Positions 3,156-50,374 of a stretch of DNA of 64,000 nucleotides are shown piece by piece; position 1 is the stretch's first letter; every line of letters starts with the position of its first letter. A model generated the notes under the pieces. It had not been told where the DNA came from, searched no databases, and worked only from the letters and a program-made list of their open reading frames with translations. The DNA comes from a phage. The DNA is taken from sequence record PZ386970.1; one strand, written 5' to 3'. The translations under genes and the position numbers were made by a program.

Positions 3156-3196
3156 GTTGTGGTCCTCATTGGTAAGTAGGTGTATTGTACACTATT

Positions 3197-3340: not shown

Positions 3341-3972
3341 TATTCGCCTCGTAACATGGCACCTAGTGCACCGCCAGGGTGGAACTTAAGGAAGTCATTA
3401 GAGGTAAATCCACGTTCAGAAGAAAGGTTGATAGCAAACGTATCGATAAGCGCTAACAACAATGTAGTGGACATTGTCGGAGCTAAAGAGTTCTCATCGA
3501 CCTCTACCGCGATGCCTGTACAGAAAGAGTAATCAAAAAGGGCTTCATTTTCTTGCGGAATGTCAGGGTTACAATGTAACAGAATCTGTTTAACCTGAGG
3601 ACGAATCATACGAAGATGTTTAGCAACACCTATCATTTCTTCGGTCTTACCAGAACGACTAATATGAATCAACACATCATTAGGCGCAATGAATCCTGCA
3701 TCACCGTGAGAATAATGCCCGGTGTTCAAGTACATACTAGGAATACCTAGTGAAGCAAATGTCTCAGAAGCTTTAGTTGCAATATTAGCATTCTTACCAA
3801 CACCTGTAATAATTACTCGGCTTTCATAATTACTAAGTCCTGGGCGTCGAAGAGTTTCTAGAATAGCATTATAACGAGCAGGGTTTTGACTAATTACTTT
3901 GGCCATAGTAGCCAAAGAAGAAGCTTGTTTTATGATTGCGTCAATAGCGATAGTGATTGGTGTAGTTTTCAT
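3340..3972 (-). CDS. SIS-domain sugar-phosphate isomerase (KdsD/GutQ/GmhA-like; arabinose-5-phosphate isomerase candidate)
   Basis: 210 aa; VIITGVGKNANIA and HISRSGKTEE resemble the SIS phosphosugar-binding motifs (SxSGxTxE). Confidence 0.7.
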   Translation of the reverse strand: MKTTPITIAIDAIIKQASSLATMAKVISQNPARYNAILETLRRPGLSNYESRVIITGVGKNANIATKASETFASLGIPSMYLNTGHYSHGDAGFIAPNDVLIHISRSGKTEEMIGVAKHLRMIRPQVKQILLHCNPDIPQENEALFDYSFCTGIAVEVDENSLAPTMSTTLLLALIDTFAINLSSERGFTSNDFLKFHPGGALGAMLRGE

Positions 3973-4012
3973 ATTTCTCTCATTTAATTAGTTTACCGTC
4001 CATGGTATTATA

Positions 4013-12347: not shown

Positions 12348-13363
12348 TGTGTTGCCTCAATATAAAGTTCGTTGGAATATTTGACCAGCGCTTCTCTGTC
12401 TTCGTCTGAGATATCTGGAATCGCATCAATATATTCTTTAATGATATCTTGAAGTGATTTAATCTCGATTTCCTGGTCGTCATCGGATTCAACACTGTTA
12501 TCAACTTTAGAAACCATACGAAGAGAGTGAACTACTTTTTCAAGTTCAGATTCAAACTTAGTCAATTCTGAATCAATTTCTGATACTATAACACGTACGG
12601 CTAGATTAGTATAATCAGAATAATTGATTTTGCCTTTAAACGGATAAGTGATTCGTCGATGCCATGTTGTTTCATTAGGAATAAATTCCATACGTTCAAC
12701 ATCAGTGTCAAATACCCAGAATCCGCGCGGGTCATTCTCATCGCCTGCAGTAAGGGTCCATGGTGTCCCAATATATTTGACGTTAGCAGCTTCAGAGATT
12801 GTGTGGAAGTGGCCAGACCAGACTTGTTTATAGGTCTTTAAGAAATCAGGTTCAAGCCCATGAGACTTCATTCCTTTATAGAAATAAAAGCCATTCAGTT
12901 CCCAGTGTCCAACACAATACGCAGCAGAAGAAGTCTTGATGTGCTCTAAGATTTCACCTGTATTTTCTTCACACATCCATGGAATTAAATCAATCAGACA
13001 CCCATCGAAATCAACAGTCGTAGGTTTATCATAAATAACAACATTTTTACGATGAGACAAAAGCTCTTGGGTTGTATTAGGGTATAAAGTTGTCTTATAA
13101 AAAAGGTCGTGGTTACCCAAAATAGTGTGAACGGTTATTCCAGCGTTTTCAGCCATATCAAATAATTCACGAGTAAACTCCATACAACGTTGTGTTGTGT
13201 GAGCTCGTACATCAAATACGTCCCCGTACTGTATCCATGTTGTTATTCCATTTTTAACAGAATAATCCACCATTTGTTTGAATCCGTGTCGTTGGATGTT
13301 TTGAATCCAAACATCATCCTTTTTTACACCTAAGTGCAAATCGCCCACGTTAAGAATTTTCAT
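12344..13363 (-). CDS. 47: Recombination/repair nuclease subunit gp47 (Mre11/SbcD-like metallophosphatase)
   Basis: Start at MKILNVGDLHLG gives 339 aa (T4 gp47 length); phosphoesterase motifs GDLHLG, GDVFD, GNHD. Confidence 0.95.
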   Translation of the reverse strand: MKILNVGDLHLGVKKDDVWIQNIQRHGFKQMVDYSVKNGITTWIQYGDVFDVRAHTTQRCMEFTRELFDMAENAGITVHTILGNHDLFYKTTLYPNTTQELLSHRKNVVIYDKPTTVDFDGCLIDLIPWMCEENTGEILEHIKTSSAAYCVGHWELNGFYFYKGMKSHGLEPDFLKTYKQVWSGHFHTISEAANVKYIGTPWTLTAGDENDPRGFWVFDTDVERMEFIPNETTWHRRITYPFKGKINYSDYTNLAVRVIVSEIDSELTKFESELEKVVHSLRMVSKVDNSVESDDDQEIEIKSLQDIIKEYIDAIPDISDEDREALVKYSNELYIEATQ

Positions 13364-14177
13364 ATTGCACCTTAAATTTACCATAAATTATACTGTGATA
13401 ACTTAAATCAGGAAAACCTTCTGCGACGGCTAAAGGTCTAAACTTCTTAGGACTTATTCTACCACATTTTACCCAAAGAGTATATAGTGCTTCATAATAT
13501 TCAAATAATGGTCCTTTACGAGCTTCAGAAACAGTTTTACGCACTTTGTCCTTTATTGACGGGTCTAAATTTCTAAGGGTTTCACTAATTTTGTTTCGAT
13601 GGGTTTCATTAATAAGATTTCCTTTAACCCAGCCTTCAGGTTCAGTCCCTGGGACAAACATTTTCTTTTCTTTGCCATTATTATACCATTTGCGACCTTT
13701 ATTGTGACTAGAGGCTTTATATTCAGGAGAACGACCTTTTACATTACCTTCTGGTATATAAGGTAGAAAACTTTGTTCTAACGTTTCAGGGTTGTATGAG
13801 TGTATATGGCCTTTACCATTATGTGAGCCGTACAATGGGTGCTCTTCTTTTGGAAGTGATAATCCGAAAAATCCTTTAGGAGCAGCAATTGCTTTATTCA
13901 TATACATCGGGTTATTGGCAGCATCCACCTTTAGTTGGAGTAAACGTTCAGCTTTTGTCGCTTCTTCTCTTGTGGCGTGTTCACTTACAATACATGAATC
14001 AAAAAGATGTGGATTCATTTTTAGTTCAGAATTGTAAATTTCCTTATACGCTTTTGATAAAACCGTTCCGTGATATCCAGCTTTATGTTTTGCAATATTT
14101 GTGGAACCTATATAAAACGGTGGAAGTTTGTCACCATCATAAATCGTAAAATATACTATGTACATGTTATTCTCCAT
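13350..14177 (-). CDS. Free-standing GIY-YIG homing endonuclease (seg-like) with NUMOD3-type DNA-binding repeats
   Basis: 275 aa; N-terminal YIVYFTIYDG...FYIGST (GIY-YIG), downstream Glu-rich catalytic region, repeated basic HxxK/NKGRKWYNNGKEKK segments; occupies the T4 alpha-gt position. Confidence 0.8.
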   Translation of the reverse strand: MENNMYIVYFTIYDGDKLPPFYIGSTNIAKHKAGYHGTVLSKAYKEIYNSELKMNPHLFDSCIVSEHATREEATKAERLLQLKVDAANNPMYMNKAIAAPKGFFGLSLPKEEHPLYGSHNGKGHIHSYNPETLEQSFLPYIPEGNVKGRSPEYKASSHNKGRKWYNNGKEKKMFVPGTEPEGWVKGNLINETHRNKISETLRNLDPSIKDKVRKTVSEARKGPLFEYYEALYTLWVKCGRISPKKFRPLAVAEGFPDLSYHSIIYGKFKVQYENS

Positions 14178-18983: not shown

Positions 18984-19454
18984 TTAATCATGTTTCCACA
19001 CCCCATCGGTATTTGACCAAAGTCGCTGATTATCTGATCCTCGCCACAGCTTTTTGGTCGGAAGATTTTTCTCATACTTCCCATCAATAATAACATCAAC
19101 ATATTTAAGCATTTCTAGCTGTTTAATATCTTCAAACTTATATCCTGTCCACAACCAAATGCTTTTATTAGGATAAAGATTTTTTACTGTTTGAACAATG
19201 CAATGAATAACATCTCGGTTATCAGGATAGAGAGGGTCACCTCCGGTTATAGTCAATCCTTCTATATAATCATTATTCAAACATTCAATTAATTGTTCTA
19301 GTGTTTCACCAGTGAATGGAATACCATTTCTAGCATTCCATGTTGATTTATTATAACACCCTTCGCATTTATGCAAACACCCTGTAACGAAAAGAACGAC
19401 CCTACAACCAGGGCCATTCACAAAATCGCAAGGATAAAACCTATCATAATTCAT
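18984..19454 (-). CDS. nrdG: Anaerobic ribonucleotide reductase activating protein NrdG (radical SAM)
   Basis: 156 aa; radical-SAM cluster motif GCLHKCEGCYN; position next to nrdD. Confidence 0.93.
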   Translation of the reverse strand: MNYDRFYPCDFVNGPGCRVVLFVTGCLHKCEGCYNKSTWNARNGIPFTGETLEQLIECLNNDYIEGLTITGGDPLYPDNRDVIHCIVQTVKNLYPNKSIWLWTGYKFEDIKQLEMLKYVDVIIDGKYEKNLPTKKLWRGSDNQRLWSNTDGVWKHD

Positions 19455-20724
19455 TGGTGTTTAACCCTATGCATGATTTCTTTATTTTTACCGAGATTAA
19501 ATCCGCGTTCGTTCGGATTTCCCAAATAGCCGCATGTTCTTCTTATGGTGTTCATCTTTTTAGGATCAGTTTCTCCACAAACTGAACAAACAAATCCGTT
19601 TTCAGTAGGAGTCATTTCATGAGTACTTCCGCATGTAAAACATTTATCCACTGGCATATTAACACCAAAATAATCTAAATGTTGTGCAGCATAATCCCAG
19701 ACAGCCTCAAGACCCTTTAAATTGTTTTTCATATCTGGAAGTTCAACATAAGAAATGTGACCACCTGTCGCAATGAAATGATATGGCGCTTCACGAGAAA
19801 TCTTTTCAAATGGAGTAATATTTTCTTCTACTGAAACATGGAAACTGTTAGTGTACCAGCCTTTATCGGTAACATCTTTTACACTTCCATATTTTTCTGT
19901 GTCTAGTTTACAGAAACGATAACAAAGGTTTTCAGCAGGAGTAGAATACAAACTAAAAGCAAATCCAGTTCTTTCAGTCCACTGTTTAAGATGAGCATTC
20001 ATTTTAGTTAAAATTTCTTGCCCAATATCACGACCAACAAGAATATTCAATTCATGAATACCAATGTATCCTAAAGACACTGAACTTCTACCATTTTTAA
20101 ATAACTCAATTATGTCATCATCAGGTTTAAGACGAACCCCGAATGCACCTTCTTGGTAAAGAATAGGAGCAACAGTCGCTTTAACTCCTTTTAAGGAACT
20201 AATTCTACACATCAAAGCTTCAAAACATAAATCCATTCGTTCATTGAATAATTCAACAAATTTCTGTTCATTGAACTGTGTTCCAATATAAGAATCTAAT
20301 GCGATACGAGGAAGATTCAGTGTTACAACACCGAGATTATTACGTCCATCAAGAATTTCATTACCAGTCGAATCTTTCCATACACTCAAGAAACTACGGC
20401 AGCCCATTGGAGAAACAGGAACAGATGAACCGGTAATAGCTTTATTATTCTTAACAGAAATAATGTCAGGATACATTCTTTTGCTTGCACATTCTAACGC
20501 AAGTTGTTTAATATCATAGTTCGGATCATCTTTATAAAGATTAACACCCTCTTCAACAAACATAACAAGTTTAGGAAAAATAGGAGTTATCCCATCACGA
20601 CCAAGACCTTTAATACGATTTTTCAGAATTGCTTTCTGAATCATTCGTTCAGTCCAGTCAGTTCCCGTACCAAATGTAATTGTTACAAAAGGCGTTTGTC
20701 CATTAGAGCTGAAAAGTGTATTTA
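19451..20724 (-). CDS. nrdD: Anaerobic ribonucleoside-triphosphate reductase NrdD, exon 2 (5' boundary approximate, 20705-20725)
   Basis: C-terminal glycyl-radical motif RTCGYLGNP and Zn-ribbon cysteines (CFTCGS…CSVCG); open frame continues upstream into the intron region. Confidence 0.85.
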
Positions 20725-20756
20725 CTTCATCATTATATTCAGCATGAGTCGCAAAT

Positions 20757-21527
20757 TCATGCCCGTTTATATGAAACAACAAAATTTGGATAGTCCATAG
20801 ATATGCAACGTTCTTTTATAGTGCTAGGATGAAAATTTAGCGCTTTAGCTGCTTCTATATAAGACGTATACTTAATACCGTCAACAACCACATATTCAGG
20901 AACTTTATGAATAGTAGTCTTAATACTCAAAACAAGAGGATGAGTTTCGACTTCACTTTCAGTGCAATTTAAATATTCCGCTGCTTTTTTAAAACTTCTA
21001 AAAGTTTTATTTTTAAGCTTTATCGATACTTGTTTTTTACTTTTTCGACTATTGATATTATTTTGCACATGTTCCTTAGATCTTCCATTTTTAGCATAAT
21101 ATTCAGCTACAGAAGATTTTATATTGTTTTTATGAGATTTGGATAACACTTTACCCTTATGAGCATCTCTTAATTTTTGAATATGTTCTTCAGTATCCGG
21201 ATGTTTATAAAACTTTTTACCGCCTATGGATTTATTTAAACATTTTTTGCTATAAAAATATTTACGTATGACCTCTTCTTCATGTTTTAATGCATCTTTA
21301 TAACTATCAAATGTTTTTAAAATTATCCATTTAGTAGGTGTATCAGTTTTTAAGCGTTCATTTATATACTTAGATGACGTTGTGTAAGTTTTCCAGTTTG
21401 TGGGCTTGTTTTTAATTGTTCTAAATTTTTTATAACCGATATAAATGTCGCCATTAGAAAACTTAACTAAGTATGTAAATGCGTCTTTATCTTTTATTTT
21501 AGTACAACGTCTTTTTATCCATTTCAT
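20757..21527 (-). CDS. Intron-encoded GIY-YIG homing endonuclease with NUMOD3-like repeats and C-terminal helix-turn-helix
   Basis: 256 aa; N-terminal YLVKFSNGDIYIGYKK…KWIILKTF…EEEVIRKY (GIY-YIG-like), basic SKSHKNNIKSS repeats, C-terminal DGIKYTSYIEAAKALNFHPSTIKERC (I-TevI-type HTH). Confidence 0.8.
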   Translation of the reverse strand: MKWIKRRCTKIKDKDAFTYLVKFSNGDIYIGYKKFRTIKNKPTNWKTYTTSSKYINERLKTDTPTKWIILKTFDSYKDALKHEEEVIRKYFYSKKCLNKSIGGKKFYKHPDTEEHIQKLRDAHKGKVLSKSHKNNIKSSVAEYYAKNGRSKEHVQNNINSRKSKKQVSIKLKNKTFRSFKKAAEYLNCTESEVETHPLVLSIKTTIHKVPEYVVVDGIKYTSYIEAAKALNFHPSTIKERCISMDYPNFVVSYKRA

Positions 21528-21556
21528 TGTTTCACCTCGTATTCATAAGATAATCT

Positions 21557-21564
21557 TATTTATA
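21557..21564 (-). promoter_or_regulatory. T4-type late promoter inside the nrdD intron, upstream of the homing-endonuclease ORF
   Basis: Minus-strand TATAAATA ~30 nt upstream of the endonuclease ATG. Confidence 0.7.
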
Positions 21565-21776
21565 CAAGATGACTGCTGCATGTCGCCATGCAGATTAGAC
21601 TATATCTTCATCTTTCGATGCCGGCCGTTTCGAATAGCATTAGCTTCTATTCTACACCGTTACATTCATCACGGTTAGTCGTTAGGCATTTAGTTCAAAA
21701 GAACATTTAGCACGGGATTGTCTTACTAGAGAGGTTCCCCGTTTAGACCGGTTTTACATGAGCCTGAATTAAATTA

Positions 21777-22314
21777 ACTCATACGCCTGAAATGCATCGT
21801 ATACATCTTTTTCTGTTTTAGATTGAGCATAATTCAACGCATCAGCGATTTGCCATTTTTCTGCATCCTCAATATGTTTTGCATAGGTGCGTTTAACATA
21901 AGGAGAAAGTACTTTATCTACATTTGCAAAAGTCGTTCCGCCGTATTGATGGGAAGCAACCTGTGCAGTAATTTGTGCCATAATTGCAGTAGCAACGCCA
22001 ATTGATTTAGGAGTTTCAATCTGTGCATTACCTAGCTTAAATCCATTTTCAAGCATTCCTTTTAAATCTACTAAACAGCAATTAGTAAAAGGAAGAGCAG
22101 GGGAATAATCAATATCGTGCACGTGAATAATTCCGCTTTCATGCGCTTTCATAATAAAAGACGGGACCATATTTTTGGCAATGTGTTTAGACACAATACC
22201 AGCCATAAGGTCCCGTTGAGTTGGAAAAACACGAGAATCTTTATTAGCATTCTCGTTCAAAAGATCTTTATTAGTTTTATGAATTAATCCTTCAATTTCT
22301 TTTTCAATTTTCAT
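21777..22314 (-). CDS. nrdD: Anaerobic ribonucleoside-triphosphate reductase NrdD, exon 1 (3' boundary approximate)
   Basis: 181 aa N-terminal frame ends within 3 codons of the intron start; a GAGT/GCTCA P1 pairing suggests a splice site near 21777. Confidence 0.8.
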
Positions 22315-37702: not shown

Positions 37703-37720
37703 AGGCCTAAGTATCGGCCT
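37703..37720 (-). terminator. Hairpin downstream of the IP gene 37723..38301
   Basis: Minus RNA AGGCC-GAUACUUA-GGCCU followed by AUUUACAUUU. Confidence 0.4.
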
Positions 37721-37722
37721 TA

Positions 37723-38301
37723 TTAATTACCACGGGCTGCATTAGCAACGGCGTAAGCGTACTGAACATTAGCGTCTTTAAATGTACCTTTAGAGGTATC
37801 TATTTCCGCCTTAAAGCCGCCTTTAGCCATTACATCGGCAAATTCTTTACGGAAAGCCATTGCGTCAAGACCTTTCCATGATGATTTATGCTTGGCAAAT
37901 TCAAGACCAGCGTAGTTGACAGCCTTAGCTAATTTATTATCAATAACCCATTTACCTGCTTTAGGCACAAACTTCGGACCTTTTTGTTTAGAGAACAGTT
38001 TTAAATTCCAACGACGAAGGTCACTGTCGGCTTTAACAAAAGCTGCATCTAAGTTACTAGCAACAACATCTTCAATATGAGCAAATTTAAGTCCGTCAAC
38101 TTCAATATTTAGATCGTTACGCCAGCGTAGTCCTTCCCAAGCGAAGGCTTTAAAATCAGAAGCTTTTGTGGCTAGATATCGTTCAAGTGGAGCAGTTTTA
38201 GGGTCAAAGCCGTTTCCGCCACGATAATTCCACTCGTCCTTATTAATGCCTTGGACTTTTCCTGCAAAGGCCTCGGCGATAAATTCTTTATACGTTTTCA
38301 T
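37723..38301 (-). CDS. Head internal protein (IP) with N-terminal capsid-targeting sequence
   Basis: 192 aa; N-terminus MKTYKEFIAEA matches the T4 IP capsid-targeting sequence (MKTYQEFIAE); Ala/Lys-rich. Confidence 0.8.
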   Translation of the reverse strand: MKTYKEFIAEAFAGKVQGINKDEWNYRGGNGFDPKTAPLERYLATKASDFKAFAWEGLRWRNDLNIEVDGLKFAHIEDVVASNLDAAFVKADSDLRRWNLKLFSKQKGPKFVPKAGKWVIDNKLAKAVNYAGLEFAKHKSSWKGLDAMAFRKEFADVMAKGGFKAEIDTSKGTFKDANVQYAYAVANAARGN

Positions 38302-38327
38302 TTTTGTTCCTATTGATTTAATTTATG

Positions 38328-38642
38328 TTATTCTTTAGGGAAGTTTTTAGAGTATGCATCATAAAGTTTATTACCAATACGGCGGAAGACTTTAGCTGCA
38401 AAACGGTTTTCAGGGTTTTTAATCATGATTTGCATCATGTAAGTTCCTGCATCCGAAAGAGCTTCTTCATAGTACCCATTAATTTCTTTAAGAGTCCTAC
38501 GTTTACCGCCAGGACCGTCAACAGTAATTTTCCATTTACCTGTAGAAGTGCGGCTCGGTGGCTCAACTTGTTCAATCCAAATATAACCACCTTCAACGCG
38601 TTGGTTGGCGGATTCTGCAATAAATTCTTTATACGTTTTCAT
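38328..38642 (-). CDS. Head internal protein (IP) with capsid-targeting sequence
   Basis: 104 aa; N-terminus MKTYKEFIAES. Confidence 0.8.
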   Translation of the reverse strand: MKTYKEFIAESANQRVEGGYIWIEQVEPPSRTSTGKWKITVDGPGGKRRTLKEINGYYEEALSDAGTYMMQIMIKNPENRFAAKVFRRIGNKLYDAYSKNFPKE

Positions 38643-38672
38643 TTTTGTTTCCTTGTTTGTTTTGATAGAGTA

Positions 38673-38702
38673 ATTATACCATATTAATACTTAAGCGTAA
38701 AC
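38673..38702 (-). promoter_or_regulatory. Early promoter (-35 GTTTAC, -10 TATAAT) upstream of IP gene 38328..38642
   Basis: Minus strand GTTTAC-N18-TATAAT. Confidence 0.65.
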
Positions 38703-38705
38703 AAT

Positions 38706-38966
38706 TTAAGCTTTACCGCCAGAAATAATTCCGAAGTTGTTAAAATCGTATCCAATATCGTCAACATCTACTTTAGGACTTACTACAACATAAGCAATTT
38801 CACTACGTTTTGCATAGGTGTTGATTTCTTTACCATCGCCACCCAAGAAAGAATACCCATTACGTTTTAATGAGCCAAAGTCTTCCGCATCACCAATGAA
38901 AGCTTTAACTTTAAATTTATGACCTTTGGCATCTGCTTCAGTGATAAATTCTTGATACATTTTCAT
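38706..38966 (-). CDS. Head internal protein (IP) with capsid-targeting sequence
   Basis: 86 aa; N-terminus MKMYQEFITEA. Confidence 0.75.
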   Translation of the reverse strand: MKMYQEFITEADAKGHKFKVKAFIGDAEDFGSLKRNGYSFLGGDGKEINTYAKRSEIAYVVVSPKVDVDDIGYDFNNFGIISGGKA

Positions 38967-38972
38967 TTTTCC

Positions 38973-39386
38973 TTAGTAAATTGATTTACCATAGTATTTG
39001 TACCAAGTCGGACGTTGAGCAATTTTTTCATCTAAGCGTGCTTGACTTATCGCAATGGACGCTTCGGACGGGACATAATTATTACGAAATTCGGCAGGGA
39101 TGTCGGAAATATCCTGGACAGTCGTGTCCTTGATTTTGAAACCACGTTTCAAGCATTCGGCGATTAGCTCGATTTGTCGTAAACGTAAAAATTCGAGTTT
39201 GTCGTAAAAGAATGTTACGTGACCTGTGCCTAAGATAAATGTTGGAGAGATTTTAAAATCCTTTACACGTTTACCGTTTTGAACATGTTTACGGACTGCA
39301 CCAAATACGCGTGGTAATTCACGATACTCGGCCATAAGATGTTGGTCGGTCAGTTCAGAAACAAGTGTTAAATTGATACGAGTCAT
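38973..39386 (-). CDS. denV: Endonuclease V (pyrimidine-dimer DNA glycosylase) DenV
   Basis: From [34 protein letters not shown], 138 aa; near-identical to recalled T4 DenV; GGAGGAA RBS. Confidence 0.95.
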
Positions 39387-39413
39387 AATTTCCTCCAAGT
39401 AGTTGATGAATGT

Positions 39414-39443
39414 ATAGTATCAAAACCCTTGGAGGAAGTAAAC
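39414..39443 (-). promoter_or_regulatory. Early promoter, PeSL-like, upstream of denV
   Basis: Plus-strand gaatgTATAGTATCAA…GTAAAC; precedes denV RBS. Confidence 0.65.
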
Positions 39444-39444
39444 A

Positions 39445-39726
39445 CTATTTTTCTGAAGCGCCTGAAATATATTTTTCAAGACGTTGTTTCATCAGCGAGC
39501 CGTTCTTAGCGATTTCTTCCGGTTTATCGCACATACGCAACAGTGCTTCAAGCTTAACGATATCACTGGTGCGCTCAAATTTGCGAGTATCTATCTTACT
39601 AGCAAGTTCAGAAATACGTGCTAATAGACTTTCGGCTTCGACCAAAGCTGCACCTAGCTTAGTTGCAAATGTGTCAGTAGCTTCGTTAAGAATAGATTCT
39701 GATAAAAATTCACTATATGTTTTCAT
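39445..39726 (-). CDS. Head internal protein (IP) with capsid-targeting sequence
   Basis: Start at [11 protein letters not shown] (93 aa); overlaps gene e stop. Confidence 0.75.
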
Positions 39727-40704: not shown

Positions 40705-40945
40705 CTCGGTCCCATGATTTGGCCATTAATTCAGACATAAATTCTTCAATGCGCGTTTCTTTAGATGGACTTTCACTATTAGAGACCGCAAGTTTGTAAT
40801 CTGCAATAGGACAGAACATATCAAGGTCCATATTAAGGTCGTCTTTGATTTTTTCTTCTGACACATCTTTATCGTATGTGTACAGATAACTATCACATGA
40901 TTCTGATTTAATGTAAATTGCTATACTCATCTCAAATTCCTGCAT
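40694..40945 (-). CDS. Hypothetical acidic protein
   Basis: 83 aa ORF. Confidence 0.45.
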   Translation of the reverse strand: MQEFEMSIAIYIKSESCDSYLYTYDKDVSEEKIKDDLNMDLDMFCPIADYKLAVSNSESPSKETRIEEFMSELMAKSWDRDDE

Positions 40946-41274
40946 TCAGTAATAAAACGTTCAACTTCGTTATTCTTGGCTTTTATCTTGTCTTTATGTT
41001 CTTGTAAACTACTTTTAATAAGATTAATAATGATGGCGGCGGTACCGCCGCCAATGATGCCACCAACAACACTTATGATACTAGATGCTAATAAGATAGC
41101 AATAATATCAACAAAACCGAAAGAACTCACCTTAGTACTAAAAAACCATACCGACGGTACAAATATAATCCATCCTGTTATCCATTGGCACTTATTGAAA
41201 AACTTTTCAAGCTCAGCTTGAGTTGTTCGTATTACTTCATCGATAGGTTGATATCCATTAATGTATCTATTCAT
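40927..41274 (-). CDS. Hypothetical membrane protein
   Basis: 115 aa; 2 TM helices. Confidence 0.5.
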   Translation of the reverse strand: MNRYINGYQPIDEVIRTTQAELEKFFNKCQWITGWIIFVPSVWFFSTKVSSFGFVDIIAILLASSIISVVGGIIGGGTAAIIINLIKSSLQEHKDKIKAKNNEVERFITECRNLR

Positions 41275-41275
41275 A

Positions 41276-41581
41276 TTATTTTCCTCGACATTCTTTAATG
41301 AAATTTTCTAGATTGGTAGATTCAATAGCTTTTTTACGAGCTTCTGCATGTTCTTCTTCAGACAATTTACATTTATAATTAACCCAGACATTATGGTCAA
41401 AACTAGTCGTGGCATATAATAACAATGCTCCAACGAATAACAAAAACGGCGATAAGAATACAAAACCAGGAACACCATCCATATCGTAAGCCTTTTGTAA
41501 TACTGCAACAGAAAGGGCTGCGTAAAAAGGTGATGCAAATATTGTTAAAAGACCAATTCGGTTGGTTTCGCCTAATTTCAT
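41276..41581 (-). CDS. Hypothetical membrane protein
   Basis: 101 aa; 2 TM helices; early promoter/stem-loop upstream. Confidence 0.5.
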   Translation of the reverse strand: MKLGETNRIGLLTIFASPFYAALSVAVLQKAYDMDGVPGFVFLSPFLLFVGALLLYATTSFDHNVWVNYKCKLSEEEHAEARKKAIESTNLENFIKECRGK

Positions 41582-41608
41582 AATATTCTCCTCATGTTTA
41601 ATAGGACT

Positions 41609-41638
41609 ACTATAACATAGTCCTATAATTGTGTAAAC
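41609..41638 (-). promoter_or_regulatory. Early promoter with stem-loop (PeSL-like)
   Basis: Plus-strand ATAGGACTACTATAACATAGTCCTAT then GTAAAC; precedes ORF 41276..41581. Confidence 0.7.
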
Positions 41639-41650
41639 AGTTTTGTGAAG

Positions 41651-42607
41651 TTATTTGAAAGGTTTTACCATATGGAAATTTTGTTTGAAACGTTTGACGT
41701 AATCATTTTTGCCGAGCTTATGATACATAGCCACTACTTCATAATAGTTCTCGTATGCGTACTCACGGAACCAACCGGAGGTGATGCTTGTACAGACTTT
41801 TTCTAATGCCATCATGAAACTGGCTTCAGGGTTAATTTTAAAGTCATTAGGAATCTGAGAACGTTCAAGAGCTAGTACACATGCTTCTTCGTATACACCG
41901 GCCAATTTGACCATTTCTGGTAATGATTCGAACTTCTCGCGTGAGGTCATGACTTCAGAACCATCTTTCATGTAAAATGTATAAGCCGGACGGTCTGTTA
42001 GTGCAATGGCTTCATGAATAGTATCATGGTCATATGTGTAGATGTCATCTTTAAAGAATGCGCTTTTAGAAGTGTCAAGAACTGGGTGAGCATAGTTCAA
42101 GGTTTCTTTCTGGCGTTTCAGCATAATTTCAGTAAGTTCATCATTCAGTGTAACACCTTTACCGCGAAGATACTGAATATGGTTCATAGTCTTTAAAAAG
42201 AATGGATTATTTTTCTTGAAACGATGAGACATCTTAATTGCAAGACATATCTCAGGAGTTGCCCAGTAAAACCCGTTCAAACGGTCTTTAGTCAAATTTT
42301 TCTTGGCGTATTTTAAAAGGTCATAAGAAGACGTGAAATCTTCAGGAGTGAGTTCACCGACTAATTCACGGACATTAGTGATTGCCGGAACGATGTATGC
42401 TTCAAAATGAGTTTCGCGTCCATTATGGAAGCATTTGAAAACTTGGACATCAGGGTTATCTTGGTGAACATATACGCCCATCATTTGATTTTTGAATGCA
42501 TTCCAAGAACCTTGGTCCGCAATAAAGTCCCAGTCACTATTTTTGATAGCGCTAGAATCAATAAGACCGTGATAGTGAAGTGCACGAGAACCAATAACTA
42601 ACATCAT
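41651..42607 (-). CDS. Hypothetical protein
   Basis: 318 aa ORF; no motif recognised. Confidence 0.6.
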   Translation of the reverse strand: MMLVIGSRALHYHGLIDSSAIKNSDWDFIADQGSWNAFKNQMMGVYVHQDNPDVQVFKCFHNGRETHFEAYIVPAITNVRELVGELTPEDFTSSYDLLKYAKKNLTKDRLNGFYWATPEICLAIKMSHRFKKNNPFFLKTMNHIQYLRGKGVTLNDELTEIMLKRQKETLNYAHPVLDTSKSAFFKDDIYTYDHDTIHEAIALTDRPAYTFYMKDGSEVMTSREKFESLPEMVKLAGVYEEACVLALERSQIPNDFKINPEASFMMALEKVCTSITSGWFREYAYENYYEVVAMYHKLGKNDYVKRFKQNFHMVKPFK

Positions 42608-42632
42608 AATAATTTCCTCGAATTTAGATTAC

Positions 42633-42872
42633 TTAAATTTCACGACATGCGATATTATATTCATCCCAGAGGTCATCGTGTGAAGCCTCTACCAATGGAA
42701 CGATTGTACCGTTTATGTCTTCATTATAAGGGCAAATTGTACAGTGCGCATCTTCGAATCGGATGCCTTTGTGTTCAGATTTTTTATAACGCATATCGAA
42801 TATCTTTGCAAACTTTTCACGAGTAATGGTTTTACCAACCACTTTGGTTCCGATACTTTCGTAATAAATCAT
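42633..42872 (-). CDS. Hypothetical protein (start at MIYYESIG with GGAG RBS)
   Basis: ORF-track frame 42633..42884, trimmed 4 codons. Confidence 0.5.
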   Translation of the reverse strand: MIYYESIGTKVVGKTITREKFAKIFDMRYKKSEHKGIRFEDAHCTICPYNEDINGTIVPLVEASHDDLWDEYNIACREI

Positions 42873-42900
42873 TGTGGACTCCATTTAATTTGATAGGACT

Positions 42901-42930
42901 ACTATAACATAGCCCTATCTTGTTGTAAAC
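42901..42930 (-). promoter_or_regulatory. Early promoter with stem-loop (PeSL-like)
   Basis: Plus-strand gATAGGACTACTATAACATAGCCCTATc then GTAAAC; precedes ORF 42633..42872. Confidence 0.7.
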
Positions 42931-42934
42931 TGTT

Positions 42935-43132
42935 TTAGCAAGAATAACTAGATGATACCCAGCCTTGAACAGTAATACTATTGTGGGATAATGAGATCGC
43001 GTCCTGGAGATTCAGACCTGCGTTATCTTCAATCCATAATGTAACTTCTTCGCGTTCTTCTGTTGCAATTTGGAACAGGTTTTCCAGAGCAGCTACTGCC
43101 GTACGTACAGCACAATCTAATTCACGAGACAT
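42935..43132 (-). CDS. Small acidic protein, member of a tandem paralog family with conserved C-terminus (QGWVSSSYSC)
   Basis: 65 aa; C-terminal G-W-V-S-S-S-x-x-C shared with the two upstream ORFs. Confidence 0.5.
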   Translation of the reverse strand: MSRELDCAVRTAVAALENLFQIATEEREEVTLWIEDNAGLNLQDAISLSHNSITVQGWVSSSYSC

Positions 43133-43141
43133 AATATTTCC

Positions 43142-43414
43142 TTAGCAAGTGTGAGAAGATGCAACCCAACCGCCATCTTCAAGGCTCAAGTTGTAGTCGT
43201 ATTGGTGAACGTCGGCCCATTCAGGATTACCATGTTTAGTATGATGTTCAAGGTCGGCTTTAAGATAACCTGGTGAATGATAGGTTCCGCCCATACCATA
43301 TGCCGGATACAAATTAAACGTGGTGTTTTGTTTATCAGCAATTTCTTTGGCTGCCTCAATAGCTGCATAGATTTTTGCTACAGCTTCAGCCAGTTCAGTT
43401 TGTTCTTTAGACAT
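43142..43414 (-). CDS. Small acidic protein, tandem paralog family member (…GGWVASSHTC)
   Basis: 90 aa; N-terminal MSKEQ…; conserved C-terminal motif. Confidence 0.55.
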   Translation of the reverse strand: MSKEQTELAEAVAKIYAAIEAAKEIADKQNTTFNLYPAYGMGGTYHSPGYLKADLEHHTKHGNPEWADVHQYDYNLSLEDGGWVASSHTC

Positions 43415-43423
43415 AATGATTCC

Positions 43424-43729
43424 TTAGCACAATGCAGAAGACGAAACCCAAGCACCTTCAGTAATAACGTAACCATTACCTTCACGCTTAACATCGCCAC
43501 CATTATTTTCAATTTCATCTTTCATCCACTGGGATACGATTTCACCCTTAGGATAATAAGTACGACCGCTACCATAATCACCTACAGAAAATGATACGGC
43601 ATATTGGTCTGCGATCTTTGTTGCTTCTTCTTCGATACGTTCAGCTTGATTCAGAAGTTTATAAATTGCATCTGAAGCAGATTTGGCATCATTAAACTCT
43701 GGTACTTTAATTTCAATAATCTTACTCAT
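43424..43729 (-). CDS. Small acidic protein, tandem paralog family member (…GAWVSSSALC)
   Basis: 101 aa; N-terminal MSKII…; conserved C-terminal motif. Confidence 0.55.
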   Translation of the reverse strand: MSKIIEIKVPEFNDAKSASDAIYKLLNQAERIEEEATKIADQYAVSFSVGDYGSGRTYYPKGEIVSQWMKDEIENNGGDVKREGNGYVITEGAWVSSSALC

Positions 43730-44085
43730 TTTCTACATTCCTTAATAAAGTTTTCGATTGTTTCATTTTCACGTTTAGCTAGGAGTTCATTATAACTAAT
43801 CATTTGAGAAGCGTAAACCTTTTTATTTTTCTTGTTATGGTTTATAAAATCGTAGTAAAAATAGACTACAGTACAAAATGATGCGATGGATGCAAAGGCT
43901 TGGGTATACCGTAAGTCCTGCCATTGGTCTGTGAATCCACTGGTATTCCCTATAAATCCTAACACAACTCCGTCAATAAGAAATCCAACTAATCCAAAGG
44001 CAAATCCCATGCCAATACTCATAATAAAAATTAGAATGTTCTCACCAAGAGAAGGCCATACGGTTAAGAGTTGAGGCTTTTGCAT
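43726..44085 (-). CDS. Hypothetical membrane protein
   Basis: 119 aa; 3 hydrophobic helices. Confidence 0.5.
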   Translation of the reverse strand: MQKPQLLTVWPSLGENILIFIMSIGMGFAFGLVGFLIDGVVLGFIGNTSGFTDQWQDLRYTQAFASIASFCTVVYFYYDFINHNKKNKKVYASQMISYNELLAKRENETIENFIKECRK

Positions 44086-44489
44086 CTTATTTCCTTAACG
44101 AATTCCATAGCTTCTTCATATTCATATTTTTTAACAGCCTCGTCATATTGAGCTCTTGCTTTTGCACATTGAATTTTCCATTCGCGTACTCGAGCTCTGT
44201 GATGACGGCCTTGGTACCAATATCCTGCCCAATTAATAGGCATTAATAAAAACGGTACAATAAGTGGTGCGACGAACATTAATGAAAACGCTGCATCAGA
44301 CGATATAACTTTATTGGAATCTAAAACAGCTCCTATAATCATAAAGATTAAAAATGCTAAAGCTAAAATAGGACCAAACAACACTTCATTAGGAATTAAT
44401 TTACGTTTGTATTCGTACGCCCAAGGCTTAATTGGCATGTATAGGGTTGGCTTTGACATATTCTCTACATTCCATAATAAATTGCTCAA
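44064..44489 (-). CDS. Hypothetical membrane protein
   Basis: 141 aa; 2-3 TM helices. Confidence 0.5.
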   Translation of the reverse strand: MSNLLWNVENMSKPTLYMPIKPWAYEYKRKLIPNEVLFGPILALAFLIFMIIGAVLDSNKVISSDAAFSLMFVAPLIVPFLLMPINWAGYWYQGRHHRARVREWKIQCAKARAQYDEAVKKYEYEEAMEFVKEIRCKSLNS

Positions 44490-45030
44490 GGATTAAATTG
44501 TTAGTGAAATTAGGACTAACAACCATGGTTTCATAAAGCGCATCAATAGCACTTAAAGCATCAACTCTTTTAAGCAAAGGCTTGCCTTCATACATAGTTT
44601 CAGAATCAACGATTAAAGTGAAGTAGTATTTTTTATTATCGACTAGAACTTCTGTATCGATATAAAACATATTAGACCTCAGAAGTTTATCTCTAAAGCC
44701 TACATAATCATCTGAACGTTCACTGATATATTCCCATTCGGTGTTTAAACAACAAACAGACCATGTAGGAGCAACGAAATCAGTGAATCTAATATCATGG
44801 TCTGCAACTAGTTTAGCAATAGCTCCGATATCATGAATCATAATACCTGGGGCTAATAAAGATTTTCTACTATGGCTAGCCGTTTTCTCAGTAGTCTCAT
44901 AAGAAGACGACCAGTACCATTTACGTCCAGTTGCAACATATCGTAATGAATCAACTAAAGACGTAGGTGGATTTACCTTATCTCGGAACTCTTCGAACAT
45001 TGAGTCAATATCATTATTTTGGTTTCGCAT
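44428..45030 (-). CDS. Hypothetical protein (start at MRNQNNDID with AAGGAG RBS)
   Basis: ORF-track frame 44428..45051 trimmed to the RBS-supported ATG immediately after a terminator hairpin. Confidence 0.55.
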   Translation of the reverse strand: MRNQNNDIDSMFEEFRDKVNPPTSLVDSLRYVATGRKWYWSSSYETTEKTASHSRKSLLAPGIMIHDIGAIAKLVADHDIRFTDFVAPTWSVCCLNTEWEYISERSDDYVGFRDKLLRSNMFYIDTEVLVDNKKYYFTLIVDSETMYEGKPLLKRVDALSAIDALYETMVVSPNFTNNLILEQFIMECREYVKANPIHAN

Positions 45031-45053
45031 GTTAACTCCTTTATTATCCAAAA

Positions 45054-46970: not shown

Positions 46971-47597
46971 TTACTTACGAGTTTTTGCATACTGAGCAGC
47001 GTCAGCAGCCAAACGACCTGCTTGTCGAAGTTTTTCTTTAATCTCATCATGAAGTGGTTGAGTATACTTCAAACCTTCGATAGTCAAATAAAGACGATAA
47101 AGGTCTGGGGTATCAAGGTTGTTGATATGTTGACCATTACGAAGAATATTGAATTCACGAACGAGTGAAGATGTATCAGATTCAATATCACGAACAAGCG
47201 AAGATAGTTGTTTATATTTTTTTTCCAGGCTAGAAGTATCAAACTTAAGAGCAGGAGCTTTAGGAGTTGCTTTTACTTCCGGCTTAGGCTCAGGTTTTGC
47301 TACTGCTTTAGGGGTCGCAGGTTTAGGAATGGTAGGAGCAGGTTTTACTTTAGGCGAACCAGACTTAGCAGAAACACCACCACTAACAATATCTTTGAAT
47401 GCTTTAGAAGCTCTATAATATTCTTTTTGGCTTGAAGTGTCGATACCGTACATGGCTTGAACGTTTTTGAAAAACTCTGTACTAGTTTTTGTACCAGAAA
47501 TAGCATCGTAAGCAGCTTGCCATTTCTCTTTTGTCATACGTACACCGGCTTCGGTGATTACTTCCGTTTCGGCTAAAAATTCATTAAAAGTATACAT
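46971..47597 (-). CDS. Internal-protein-like late protein with divergent capsid-targeting N-terminus and Pro/Lys/Ala-rich linker
   Basis: 208 aa; N-terminus MYTFNEFLAETE (variant of the MKTYQEFIAE targeting sequence); PKVKPAPTIPKPATPKAVAKPEPKPEVKATPK low-complexity linker; TATAAATA late promoter upstream. Confidence 0.7.
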   Translation of the reverse strand: MYTFNEFLAETEVITEAGVRMTKEKWQAAYDAISGTKTSTEFFKNVQAMYGIDTSSQKEYYRASKAFKDIVSGGVSAKSGSPKVKPAPTIPKPATPKAVAKPEPKPEVKATPKAPALKFDTSSLEKKYKQLSSLVRDIESDTSSLVREFNILRNGQHINNLDTPDLYRLYLTIEGLKYTQPLHDEIKEKLRQAGRLAADAAQYAKTRK

Positions 47598-47632: not shown

Positions 47633-47640
47633 TATTTATA
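47633..47640 (-). promoter_or_regulatory. T4-type late promoter for the IP-like gene 46971..47597
   Basis: Minus-strand TATAAATA ~36 nt upstream of the ATG. Confidence 0.75.
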
Positions 47641-47641
47641 C

Positions 47642-47670
47642 AAAAAAGCCCCAACCTTTCGGAAGGGGCT
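47642..47670 (-). terminator. Rho-independent terminator (minus strand) at the end of the tRNA/small-RNA region
   Basis: Minus RNA AGCCCCUUCC-GAAA-GGUUGGGGCUUUUUU. Confidence 0.7.
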
Positions 47671-50005: not shown

Positions 50006-50314
50006 CTATTTTATTCCGCGTGATGCAATCGTATTCTGCCGTTTAACGCCAGTTTGTTTAAAGTTATGATTGTCGAGTTGATCGGTACGAGCAACTCCGA
50101 ATGATGATTTAATCTTAGCTTTAGATCCTTTAGTTATAGAAATAAACATCTCGGGAGCCCCTTTCTTAAAGTCCGAAGCAATTACTTCAACACCGTTCTT
50201 AGCAAGTGACCTCAGAATTGCTTCCGCATACTCATCATCAAGACCCGCTTGAGTATGAATAACGAATGTCTTTGGTGCAGCTGCTTCACAGATAAATTCT
50301 TTAAATGTTTTCAT
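50006..50314 (-). CDS. Head internal protein (IPI position) with capsid-targeting sequence
   Basis: 102 aa; N-terminus MKTFKEFICEAA; adjacent to 57B as ipI is in T4. Confidence 0.75.
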   Translation of the reverse strand: MKTFKEFICEAAAPKTFVIHTQAGLDDEYAEAILRSLAKNGVEVIASDFKKGAPEMFISITKGSKAKIKSSFGVARTDQLDNHNFKQTGVKRQNTIASRGIK

Positions 50315-50344: not shown

Positions 50345-50374
50345 ACTATAACATAGTCCTATCAGCATGTAAAC
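50345..50374 (-). promoter_or_regulatory. Early promoter with stem-loop (PeSL-like) upstream of the IPI-like gene
   Basis: Plus-strand ATAGGACTACTATAACATAGTCCTAT then GTAAAC. Confidence 0.7.

What the first reader, a model, noticed from the sequence alone, without database searches (positions are those of the whole stretch)
37723..39726. Expanded, diverse family of capsid-targeted internal proteins (candidate injected anti-restriction/anti-defence effectors)
Six ORFs begin with the T4 internal-protein capsid-targeting sequence or a variant: MKTYKEFIAEA (37723-38301), MKTYKEFIAES (38328-38642), MKMYQEFITEA (38706-38966), [11 protein letters not shown] (39445-39726), MKTFKEFICEAA (50006-50314) and MYTFNEFLAETE (46971-47597). 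After the targeting peptide the sequences are unrelated. T4 has three such proteins, and T4 IPI* is known to inhibit a type IV modification-dependent restriction enzyme. A six-member set alongside a hypermodification cassette suggests a cargo of injected counter-defence proteins of unknown targets.
Basis: partly seen in the sequence, partly recalled or inferred. Interest (0 to 1): 0.6.

Follow-up and report, generated by a model that had tools for sequence, protein, structure and literature searches.

The report
Capsid-packaged injected proteins of RB69-like phage
Six small genes of this RB69-like T-even phage start with the peptide that loads proteins into the phage head for injection with the DNA; this is a well-known kind of anti-restriction cargo, and only one of the six belongs to a family that no record annotates as such.

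Summary
Six minus-strand ORFs start with M-[KY]-[TM]-[YF]-x-E-F-[IL]-x-E. The motif occurs nowhere else in the 64 kb, against 1e-5 matches expected by chance. The window comes from a Mosigvirus (RB69-like T-even phage).

Five of the six belong to families already annotated as internal head proteins:
- 192 aa: T4 IPIII ortholog, 93% identical
- 104 aa: Ip10
- 93 aa: Ip5-like
- 102 aa: Ip7, at the ipI locus
- 86 aa: RB69p125 family

The sixth (208 aa, MYTFNEFLAETE) is "hypothetical protein" in the listed records among 144 phage records with a match. I still judge it a real member. Its homologs start MKTYNEFLNES, a second I/L-x-E|A site is invariant, and a terminator plus an exact late promoter lie just upstream. 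It marks a third, tRNA-adjacent ip locus holding one modular family.

Rao and Black stated it in 2010. In 2025, T4 Ip1, Ip2 and Ip3 were each shown to block a different GmrSD type IV enzyme. Six is normal for the genus: RB69 and Bas46 each have seven. Targets of five of the six proteins remain unknown, and packaging is inferred, not shown.

The parts
37723..38301 (-). IPIII (Ip3) ortholog, 192 aa, leader MKTYKEFIAE|A, mature pI 9.6
   Evidence: 92.7% identical to T4 IPIII over 178 aligned residues, E 7.5e-128. Hits phrog_5341 'internal virion protein' at E 2.8e-117. Annotated ipi3 / internal head protein in p000v and Bas46. A terminator-like hairpin follows the stop codon at 37703-37720.
38328..38642 (-). 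Ip10-family internal protein, 104 aa, leader MKTYKEFIAE|S, mature pI 9.6
   Evidence: 72% identical to the proteins annotated Ip10 in Shigella phage SP18 and phage VR25. Found in 190 phage records, mostly labelled 'hypothetical protein'. Hits phrog_3966, function unknown.
38673..38701 (-). T4-early-type promoter-like site (GTTTAC -35, TG-extended TATAAT -10) upstream of the 104-aa gene
   Evidence: Matches 10 of 12 consensus positions, with TG before the -10. Sequence read. This is a consensus match only.
38706..38966 (-). Internal head protein of the RB69p125 family, 86 aa, leader MKMYQEFITE|A, mature pI 6.8
   Evidence: 95% identical to RB69 gp125, annotated 'internal head protein'. Found in 218 phage records. 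Hits phrog_2667 at E 1.8e-21.
39445..39726 (-). Ip5-like internal head protein, 93 aa, leader [10 protein letters not shown]|SILNE|A, mature pI 6.3; its start codon overlaps the stop codon of lysozyme gene e (ATGA)
   Evidence: Hits phrog_3499 'internal head protein' at E 1.2e-46. 48% identical to Ip5 of RB15 (Z35082) and ipV of Yersinia phage PST. RB69 gp127 has lost the first site but keeps LNE|A. The overlap with e is visible.
46971..47597 (-). Unannotated leader-bearing protein of the third (tRNA-adjacent) ip locus, 208 aa, leader MYTFNEFLAE|TEVITE|A; N-terminal helical domain, Pro/Lys/Ala-rich linker, conserved C-terminal helical domain
   Evidence: Homologs start with MKTYNEFLNES. F7, E16 and (near-invariantly) E10 and A17 are conserved. 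144 phage records match, and every listed record calls it 'hypothetical protein'. Hits phrog_2280, function unknown. AlphaFold2 model; no significant fold match. Related to Bas46_0240 / RB69 ORF149c and, through P0039, to Bas46_0241.
47633..47640 (-). Exact T4 late-promoter box TATAAATA, 43 nt upstream of the start codon of the 208-aa gene
   Evidence: It is one of only six exact copies on the minus strand of the window.
47642..47670 (-). Intrinsic-terminator-like hairpin (AGCCCC...GGGGCT followed by T6) directly upstream of the late promoter
   Evidence: Read from the sequence. It isolates the 208-aa gene as a late transcription unit of its own.
50006..50314 (-). Ip7-family internal head protein occupying the ipI locus (next to 57B/57A), 102 aa, leader MKTFKEFICE|A, mature pI 9.9
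   Evidence: Hits phrog_2667 at E 6e-40. 95% identical to the 'Ip7 protein' of phage WG01 and 86-87% to the 'Ip7 protein' of Enterobacter phages. AlphaFold2 gives a beta-alpha-beta-beta-alpha core plus a disordered basic tail. The fold search returns only generic ferredoxin/ACT-like matches and no IPI*.
50345..50374 (-). T4-early-type promoter-like site (GTTTAC, 18 nt spacer, TATAGT) overlapping an inverted repeat ATAGGACTA/TAGTCCTAT, upstream of the 102-aa gene
   Evidence: Read from the sequence. This is a consensus match only.

Best explanation
The six genes encode T4-type internal proteins.

Proposed mechanism, step by step:
1. The first ten residues form a capsid targeting sequence that binds the protein to the scaffolding core while the prohead is built.
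2. The gp21-type prohead protease removes the leader after the Glu of an I/L-x-E motif. That is residue 10 in most of them, and probably residue 15 in the 93-aa protein and residue 16 in the 208-aa protein.
3. The mature proteins (76-198 aa) stay inside the head with the DNA and are ejected into the cell ahead of any phage gene expression.
4. There they most probably each bind and block one variant of the very diverse GmrSD-family type IV restriction enzymes, which attack sugar-modified cytosine DNA.

What is shown here: the motif and its key residues, the homology of each protein, and the presence of the protease and scaffold in a close relative.

What rests on experiments with T4: leader-dependent packaging and cleavage, and inhibition of the ECOR17 GmrSD by IPIII. 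I transfer the latter to the 93%-identical 192-aa protein.

What is inferred: packaging of each protein in this phage, and anti-defence activity of the other five.

The 208-aa protein belongs to a separate, internally homologous, modular family at a third locus near the tRNA genes. I predict it is packaged, but its function is the least certain.
For: - The motif occurs only at six N-termini, against 1.2e-5 expected by chance.
- All six keep an aromatic residue at position 4, F7, I/L8 and E10. These are the positions that matter for targeting (4, 7) and processing (8, 10) in T4 IPIII (PMC9026906).
- The 192-aa protein is 93% identical to T4 IPIII. T4 Ip3 is sufficient to block the ECOR17 GmrSD, and Ip1, Ip2 and Ip3 each block a different GmrSD with no cross-protection (PMC12373910). 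IPIII lacking its leader still works from a plasmid, so it acts in the cytoplasm (PMC9391042).
- Four others fall in families annotated Ip5, Ip7, Ip10 or internal head protein.
- In the 208-aa family the leader is conserved across genera and a second I/L-x-E|A site is invariant, as in T4 IPI, which is cut at ITE|A after residue 19. A terminator plus an exact late promoter lie directly upstream.
- Mosigvirus p000v encodes the head maturation protease, the gp22 scaffold, gp67, gp68 and Alt. Its leader-bearing ORFs lie only in the segment between vs.8 and 57B.
- A GmrSD-family enzyme (BrxU) restricts a Mosigvirus and cleaves its arabinosylated DNA in vitro, so the threat is real for this genus (PMC13390438).
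- The locus is mosaic: 894 phage records match the 2.8-kb region, but only 65 cover at least 80% of it.
Against: - I found no virion proteomics for any Mosigvirus in the paper library. Packaging and cleavage are therefore unverified for these proteins.
[quoted passage not shown] 'Every Ip is a GmrSD inhibitor' is thus still an extrapolation from three cases.
- T4 IPIII also affects the rate of head assembly, so a structural role coexists with the anti-defence role.
- Two of the six mature proteins are not basic (pI 6.3 and 6.8).
- Only the 208-aa gene has an exact late promoter. The 102-aa and 104-aa genes have early-type promoter-like sites instead.
- The C-terminal domain of the 208-aa family is strongly conserved. 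That is not what an arms-race inhibitor would be expected to show.
Confidence: 0.7

Rival explanations
1. The proteins are packaged and injected as proposed, but most of the five uncharacterised ones act on something other than GmrSD-type restriction. Candidates are other first-line defences (type I/III restriction-modification, BREX, other modification-dependent nucleases) or host take-over functions, as with the packaged ADP-ribosyltransferase Alt.
For: [quoted passage not shown]
- Alt shows that T4 head cargo is not limited to restriction inhibitors (PMC9026906).
- In a sample of 86 viral contigs plus the reference loci, about 40 unrelated protein families carry this leader, some as long as 250-388 aa. 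That diversity is hard to assign to a single target class.
- The mature parts have no relatives in Pfam, NCBIfam or the PDB.
Against: All three T4 internal proteins whose targets are known hit GmrSD enzymes. GmrSD enzymes are extremely diverse and only a minority have been tested.
Confidence: 0.3
2. The proteins are mainly structural head components. They would be basic, Lys-rich proteins that help build the scaffolding core and neutralise or organise the packaged DNA, and any anti-defence activity would be secondary.
For: - T4 IPIII mutants assemble heads at about half the normal rate, with a burst about 40% of normal and more polyheads (PMC9026906).
- Lysines of the internal proteins contact DNA phosphates in the T4 head (PMC3012670).
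- Four of the six mature proteins have pI 9.6-9.9.
- The 208-aa protein has a Pro/Lys/Ala-rich linker, and the 102-aa protein has a disordered basic tail.
Against: - T4 lacking all three internal proteins is still viable on laboratory strains.
- The gene content of these loci turns over between close relatives: window, p000v, Bas46 and RB69 all differ. That is the pattern of accessory genes, not structural ones.
- Two of the mature proteins are near-neutral.
Confidence: 0.15
3. The 208-aa protein is not head cargo. Its N-terminus (MYTFNEFLAE, with Tyr-Thr instead of Lys-Thr at positions 2-3) would be a relic or a chance resemblance, and the protein would act inside the infected cell late in infection.
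For: - Among 144 matching phage records, every listed one calls it 'hypothetical protein', and its PHROG has no assigned function.
- It lies outside the two recognised ip loci.
- Positions 2-3 differ from the canonical leader.
Against: - Its relatives in AnYang- and CLB_P2-type (Dhakavirus) phages start with the canonical MKTYNEFLNES.
- Across the ten aligned family members position 4 is always Tyr or Phe, F7 is invariant, position 8 is Leu or Ile and E10 is nearly invariant. The more distant representatives mostly keep these residues but relax them in places (for example MLKFKDILTES, MISFNEFVDG).
- Positions 2 and 3 are the variable ones. The amber-suppressor substitutions made at position 2 of the T4 IPIII leader did not single it out as critical.
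- An exact late promoter lies just upstream.
- The other genes at this locus in Bas46 and RB69 also start with MKTYAEFLTE or MKSYAEFLTE.
Confidence: 0.2

Closest known systems
T4 internal protein III (IPIII / Ip3), inhibitor of the two-gene GmrSD system of E. coli ECOR17
   Same: The 192-aa protein is 93% identical over the mature part, has the same length and a near-identical leader (MKTYKEFIAE against MKTYQEFIAE), and sits in the same denV-e region.
   Different: The gene order is rearranged. Here it is e, Ip5-like, denV, 86-aa gene, Ip10, ipIII, vs.8; in T4 it is e, ipIII, ipII, denV, vs.8. The host phage has arabinosylated rather than glucosyl-hydroxymethyl cytosine DNA. Activity against GmrSD was not tested for this allele.
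T4 IPI* (Ip1), inhibitor of GmrSD from E. coli CT596
   Same: The 102-aa protein occupies the same genomic slot, directly beside 57B/57A. It has a similar size and a leader of the same type. The 208-aa and 93-aa proteins resemble IPI in having a second, more distal I/L-x-E|A site (T4 IPI is cut after residue 19).
   Different: None of the six is similar to IPI in sequence. The predicted fold of the 102-aa protein matches only generic ferredoxin/ACT-like domains, not the IPI* structure. RB69 and Bas46 do carry a true IPI homolog at this locus, but this window does not.
Named T-even internal protein families Ip5 (RB15), Ip7 and Ip10 (SP18, VR5, VR25, WG01)
   Same: The 93-aa protein is 48% identical to Ip5, the 102-aa protein 86-95% identical to proteins named Ip7, and the 104-aa protein 72% identical to Ip10.
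   Different: These names come from genome annotation and from the 1994 polymorphism study of Repoila et al. None of the three families has a known target.
Other phage head cargo delivered with the DNA: P1 DarA/DarB anti-restriction proteins and the ejection proteins of phiKZ/SPN3US-type giant phages
   Same: The logic is the same. Proteins are loaded into the procapsid, often through an N-terminal propeptide removed by the prohead protease, and then act before any phage gene is expressed (from my own knowledge; PMC9024508 and PMC5694885 appeared in the literature searches).
   Different: The targeting signals are unrelated. Dar proteins are large and act against type I restriction-modification systems. 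There is no sequence relationship to the proteins here.

Membership tests
T4-type internal proteins (capsid-targeted head cargo) | N-terminal ~10-residue capsid targeting sequence MKT[YF]xEF[IL]xE, with the residues needed for targeting (positions 4 and 7) | tested here: met
   All six have Tyr or Phe at position 4 and Phe at position 7. The importance of these positions is from PMC9026906. The 208-aa protein deviates only at positions 2-3.
T4-type internal proteins (capsid-targeted head cargo) | gp21-type cleavage motif I/L-x-E at the end of the leader | tested here: met
   IAE, IAE, ITE, LSE, LAE and ICE at residues 8-10. Extra sites: LNE|A at residue 15 (93-aa protein) and ITE|A at residue 16 (208-aa protein). 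This tests the motif only; cleavage itself was not observed.
T4-type internal proteins (capsid-targeted head cargo) | Physical presence in the mature head and ejection into the host | not testable with these tools
   No Mosigvirus virion proteome was found in the paper library.
T4-type internal proteins (capsid-targeted head cargo) | The phage encodes the prohead protease gp21 and the scaffolding core (gp22, gp67, gp68) | tested here: inconclusive
   These genes are not in the window. They are present in the closely related Mosigvirus p000v, 96.9% identical over the 2.8-kb ip-denV-e region queried, and belong to the core gene set of T4-like phages (PMC9026906).
T4-type internal proteins (capsid-targeted head cargo) | Location in one of the two recognised ip loci (denV-e region; ipI next to 57B) | tested here: met
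   Met for five genes. Not met for the 208-aa gene, which lies at a third site about 0.75 kb from the tRNA-Arg/Met pair.
IPIII (Ip3) | Full-length sequence homology to T4 IPIII | tested here: met
   192-aa protein: 92.7% identity, E 7.5e-128. Hits phrog_5341 over its full length.
IPIII (Ip3) | Inhibition of the ECOR17-type two-gene GmrSD | not testable with these tools
   Shown for T4 Ip3 only (PMC12373910).
IPI* (Ip1) | Sequence or fold similarity to T4 IPI* | tested here: not met
   No BLAST similarity for any of the six (best E about 1). The fold search with the 102-aa model does not return IPI*. The model has only moderate confidence (mean pLDDT 64, core about 80).
IPII (Ip2) | Sequence similarity to T4 IPII | tested here: not met
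   Best E 1.4.

The most novel reading that the evidence does not exclude
The 208-aa protein and its relatives (Bas46_0240, Bas46_0241, RB69 ORF149c and about 13 clusters among 1.8 billion representative proteins) form an unrecognised third class of T-even head cargo.

The family is homologous within itself and modular: leader, then one of at least two N-terminal helical domains, then a Pro/Lys/Ala-rich linker, then one of several C-terminal helical domains. It is fixed at a site next to the tRNA genes. In this window the gene has its own late promoter.

Its conserved C-terminal domain suggests that it acts on a conserved partner, such as a host core factor or the incoming DNA, rather than on a fast-evolving restriction enzyme.
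Probability: 0.25. Interest if true: 0.55.

Novelty: new member of a known kind. Interest (0 to 1): 0.3.

Why it matters
Injected internal proteins act before any phage gene is expressed. In T4 they decide whether the phage can grow on wild E. coli strains that carry particular GmrSD type IV restriction enzymes. Knowing a phage's internal-protein repertoire therefore helps predict host range, which matters for therapeutic T4-like phages.

For this phage the analysis gives three testable predictions:
- It has an Ip3 ortholog, so it should resist the ECOR17-type GmrSD.
- It has no Ip1 or Ip2 homolog, so it may be sensitive to the CT596- and ECOR21/BrxU-type enzymes unless another of its internal proteins compensates.
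- It carries five packaged-protein candidates with no known target.

The one addition to existing knowledge is modest. A family annotated everywhere as hypothetical, at a third locus, has every sequence hallmark of head cargo and should be included in future screens of ip genes.

Tried and rejected
- Pfam, NCBIfam and PDB sequence searches of the six proteins gave nothing meaningful. The only hits were a sub-threshold AbiJ_NTD3 match for the 102-aa protein and a TonB-like match caused by the Pro/Lys linker of the 208-aa protein.
- Foldseek searches against the PDB found only generic helical hairpins (WXG100/EsxA-like, E>1) for the 208-aa model and generic ferredoxin/ACT-like domains (E>0.04) for the 102-aa model. 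I draw no functional inference from either.
- I tested whether the 86-aa and 102-aa proteins are paralogs, because both hit PHROG 2667. Pairwise BLAST gives E 0.08 and hhalign gives 77% probability, mostly over the leader. This stays unresolved.
- I looked for late promoters in front of all six genes. Only the 208-aa gene has an exact TATAAATA. One-mismatch boxes occur at 1.7 per kb on the minus strand and so are uninformative.
- I tried to find out which ten ip genes Silas et al. tested. The supplementary files held as text do not list them.
- Repoila et al. 1994 (PMC395341) and Rifat et al. 2008 (PMC2255585) are not in the paper library. What I say about them comes from papers that cite them.
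- I searched for virion proteomics of Mosigvirus or of phage fHe-Yen9-01, which has a homolog of the 208-aa protein. Nothing usable turned up.
Full report
WHAT THE WINDOW IS

The 2.8 kb around the finding is 97.5% identical to Escherichia phage ChristianSchoenbein (Bas46) and 96.9% identical to phage p000v. Both are Mosigvirus, the RB69-like genus of T-even phages. The window runs from the sugar-nucleotide genes beside DNA polymerase gp43, through nrdD, tk, regB, denV, e, the tRNA genes and 57B/57A, to the baseplate genes.

THE OBSERVATION

All six ORFs exist at the stated coordinates, on the minus strand. I scanned all 835 ATG-started ORFs of at least 30 aa with a strict and a loose version of the motif. 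Both return exactly these six, and the motif never occurs internally in any frame. The window's amino-acid composition predicts 1.2e-5 matches. At the DNA level the ten leader codons are 63-90% identical between genes, while the following ten codons are 23-50% identical. The mature parts show no BLAST similarity to each other; the best E-value is 0.6.

WHAT EACH GENE IS

- The 192-aa protein is the ortholog of T4 IPIII, at 92.7% identity.
- The 104-aa protein is 72% identical to proteins annotated Ip10 in SP18 and VR25.
- The 93-aa protein is 48% identical to Ip5 of RB15 and ipV of phage PST, and matches PHROG 3499, 'internal head protein'.
- The 86-aa protein is 95% identical to RB69 gp125, annotated 'internal head protein'.
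- The 102-aa protein sits where T4 has ipI, directly beside 57B. It is 86-95% identical to proteins named Ip7.
- None of the six resembles T4 IPI or IPII.

The gene order differs from T4. Here it is e, Ip5-like, denV, 86-aa gene, Ip10, ipIII, vs.8. In T4 it is e, ipIII, ipII, denV, vs.8.

THE SIXTH GENE

The 208-aa ORF starts MYTFNEFLAETE. It matches 144 phage records, every listed one of which calls it 'hypothetical protein', and its PHROG (2280) has no assigned function. I conclude that it is nevertheless a true leader-bearing protein, for four reasons.

1. Homologs in AnYang- and CLB_P2-type (Dhakavirus) phages start with the canonical MKTYNEFLNES. Across the ten aligned family members position 4 is always Tyr or Phe, F7 is invariant, position 8 is Leu or Ile and E10 is nearly invariant, while positions 2-3 vary. 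The more distant representatives mostly keep these residues but relax them in places.
2. A second I/L-x-E|A site at residues 14-17 is invariant. This resembles T4 IPI, whose propeptide is cut at ITE|A after residue 19.
3. A terminator-like hairpin followed by an exact late-promoter box TATAAATA lies 43 nt upstream of its start codon.
4. At the same map position, 0.4-1.5 kb from the tRNA genes, Bas46 carries two other ORFs starting MKTYAEFLTE and MKSYAEFLTE, and RB69 carries a frameshifted copy of the first.

These third-locus proteins are related to one another. A profile comparison links the 208-aa family to Bas46_0240 (probability 92%, E 8e-7). A metagenomic representative, P0039, bridges Bas46_0241 (E 6e-24) and the 208-aa protein (E 5e-14). 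An exhaustive profile search of 1.8 billion representative proteins found only 13 clusters. They show a modular build: leader, one of at least two N-terminal helical domains, a Pro/Lys/Ala-rich linker, and alternative C-terminal domains.

AlphaFold2 predicts a small N-terminal helical domain (pLDDT about 85), a disordered linker, and a C-terminal helical domain of three helices (pLDDT about 90). No significant match was found in the PDB.

IS SIX AN EXPANSION?

Only relative to T4. The same scan finds seven leader-bearing genes in RB69 and seven in Bas46. In the complete genome of p000v the pattern scan finds five, and a sixth (gp242, the 86-aa homolog) has Thr instead of Ile/Leu at position 8 and is annotated from an internal Met; all six lie in the segment between vs.8 and 57B, and none in the remaining 141 kb.

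An exact-pattern DNA scan of IMG/VR returned 86 loci. Together with the reference loci these hold 147 leader-bearing ORFs, which fall into about 40 BLAST families. The leader is thus a widely reused address label. The repertoires differ between close relatives. For example, the ipI slot holds Ip7 here, a 63%-identical Ip7 variant in p000v, a true IPI homolog in Bas46, and both in RB69.

MECHANISM

The steps are known from T4. The ten-residue leader of IPIII is sufficient to carry foreign proteins into the prohead core. Residues 4 and 7 matter for targeting and residues 8 and 10 for cleavage by gp21. About 360 copies of each internal protein stay in the head and leave with the DNA (PMC9026906). 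All six proteins here keep those four residues.

T4 IPI* blocks the GmrSD of strain CT596. In 2025 Ip2 and Ip3 were shown to block the GmrSD enzymes of ECOR21 and ECOR17, each strictly specific for its own target (PMC12373910). IPIII lacking its leader still works when expressed in the host (PMC9391042). GmrSD-family enzymes are relevant to this genus too: BrxU restricts the Mosigvirus NP and cleaves its mono- and di-arabinosylated DNA (PMC13390438).

The best-supported reading is therefore as follows. All six proteins are head cargo. The 192-aa protein is an inhibitor of the ECOR17-type GmrSD. The others are probably inhibitors of other variants of modification-dependent nucleases. The last step is inference. 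Ten further ip genes tested by Silas et al. found no target among five additional GmrSD systems, IPIII also influences head assembly, and the conserved C-terminal domain of the third-locus family does not look like an arms-race interface.

EXPRESSION SIGNALS (LOW WEIGHT)

- The 93-aa gene overlaps the stop codon of lysozyme gene e (ATGA).
- The 104-aa and 102-aa genes are preceded by T4-early-type promoter-like sites (GTTTAC, 17-18 nt spacer, TATAAT or TATAGT).
- A hairpin follows ipIII.
- Only the 208-aa gene has an exact late box.

STRUCTURE OF THE IP7-LIKE PROTEIN

The model has a beta-alpha-beta-beta-alpha core (residues 14-72, pLDDT about 80) and a disordered basic tail. It matches only generic ferredoxin/ACT-like domains and not IPI*. 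Sharing the ipI slot does not imply sharing the IPI fold.

COMPARISON WITH WHAT IS KNOWN, AND VERDICT

The idea that T-even internal proteins are a diverse set of injected defence proteins sharing only the targeting sequence has been in the literature since the 1990s. Rao and Black state it explicitly (PMC3012670). Silas et al. note at least ten reported Ips and speak of two Ip loci.

The finding is real and correctly interpreted, but five of the six genes are ordinary members of annotated families and the concept is established. The new part is small: an unannotated, internally homologous, modular family at a third, tRNA-adjacent locus carries every sequence hallmark of head cargo.

Interest is 0.3, and the novelty rating is 'new member of a known kind'.

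Noticed in passing
window 19451-22314 (minus strand): The anaerobic ribonucleotide reductase gene nrdD is in two pieces. A 181-aa ORF covers Pfam NRDD positions 1-141, and a 443-aa ORF with a TTG start covers positions 145-562 plus the glycyl-radical domain. Between them lies a 256-aa GIY-YIG homing endonuclease ORF (20757-21527). Mosigvirus p000v has an intact 605-aa nrdD. The insert and its flanks are 99% identical to copies in many Tequatrovirus genomes (JK45, SHSML-52-1 and others), which suggests recent transfer between genera. Rfam finds no group I intron at gathering threshold. It may still be the T4 nrdD (sunY) intron with an I-TevII-like ORF, which the model would miss because of the ORF insert.
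   Followed up: partly
window 1470-3972 (minus strand): A 561-aa protein with an N-terminal NTP-transferase domain and a 210-aa SIS-domain protein lie next to the DNA polymerase gene gp43. The SIS protein is annotated arabinose-5-phosphate isomerase in p000v. These are part of the Mosigvirus sugar-precursor cluster for cytosine arabinosylation.
   Followed up: partly
window 42935-43729 (minus strand): Three adjacent small ORFs (65, 90 and 101 aa) look like paralogs. All end in a similar C-terminal motif: GWVSSSYSC, GGWVASSHTC and GAWVSSSALC. Their function is unknown.
   Followed up: no
window 40927-45051 (minus strand): Five consecutive ORFs share a C-terminal motif F-[IV]-x-E-[CI]-R within their last 5-22 residues: FITECRNLR, FIKECRGK, FIKECRK, FVKEIRCK and FIMECREY. 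Most of them have hydrophobic, membrane-like segments. This looks like a locally amplified family in the e.2-e.5 region.
   Followed up: no
window 50345-50374 and 38673-38701 (minus strand): The promoter-like regions upstream of the Ip7-like and Ip10 genes resemble each other: GTTTAC, a TATAGT or TATAAT box, then CTATCAAAA, with 67% identity over the 30 nt before the start codon. The one before the Ip7-like gene overlaps an inverted repeat, ATAGGACTA/TAGTCCTAT. This recalls the promoter-stem-loop cassettes proposed to mediate modular shuffling in T4-type genomes (PMC2839356), but I did not test the resemblance.
   Followed up: no
L004 (RB69) 3454-4016 and 13325-13597: In RB69 the third-locus gene is split by a frameshift into ORF149c and ORF148c, compared with the intact 187-aa Bas46_0240. 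The RB69 Ip10 homolog (ORF124c, 90 aa) has a divergent, shortened C-terminus. RB69 gp127 (Ip5-like) has lost the first cleavage motif (MKTYMNFYQN) but keeps LNE|A. Individual ip genes therefore appear to decay or change in single isolates.
   Followed up: partly
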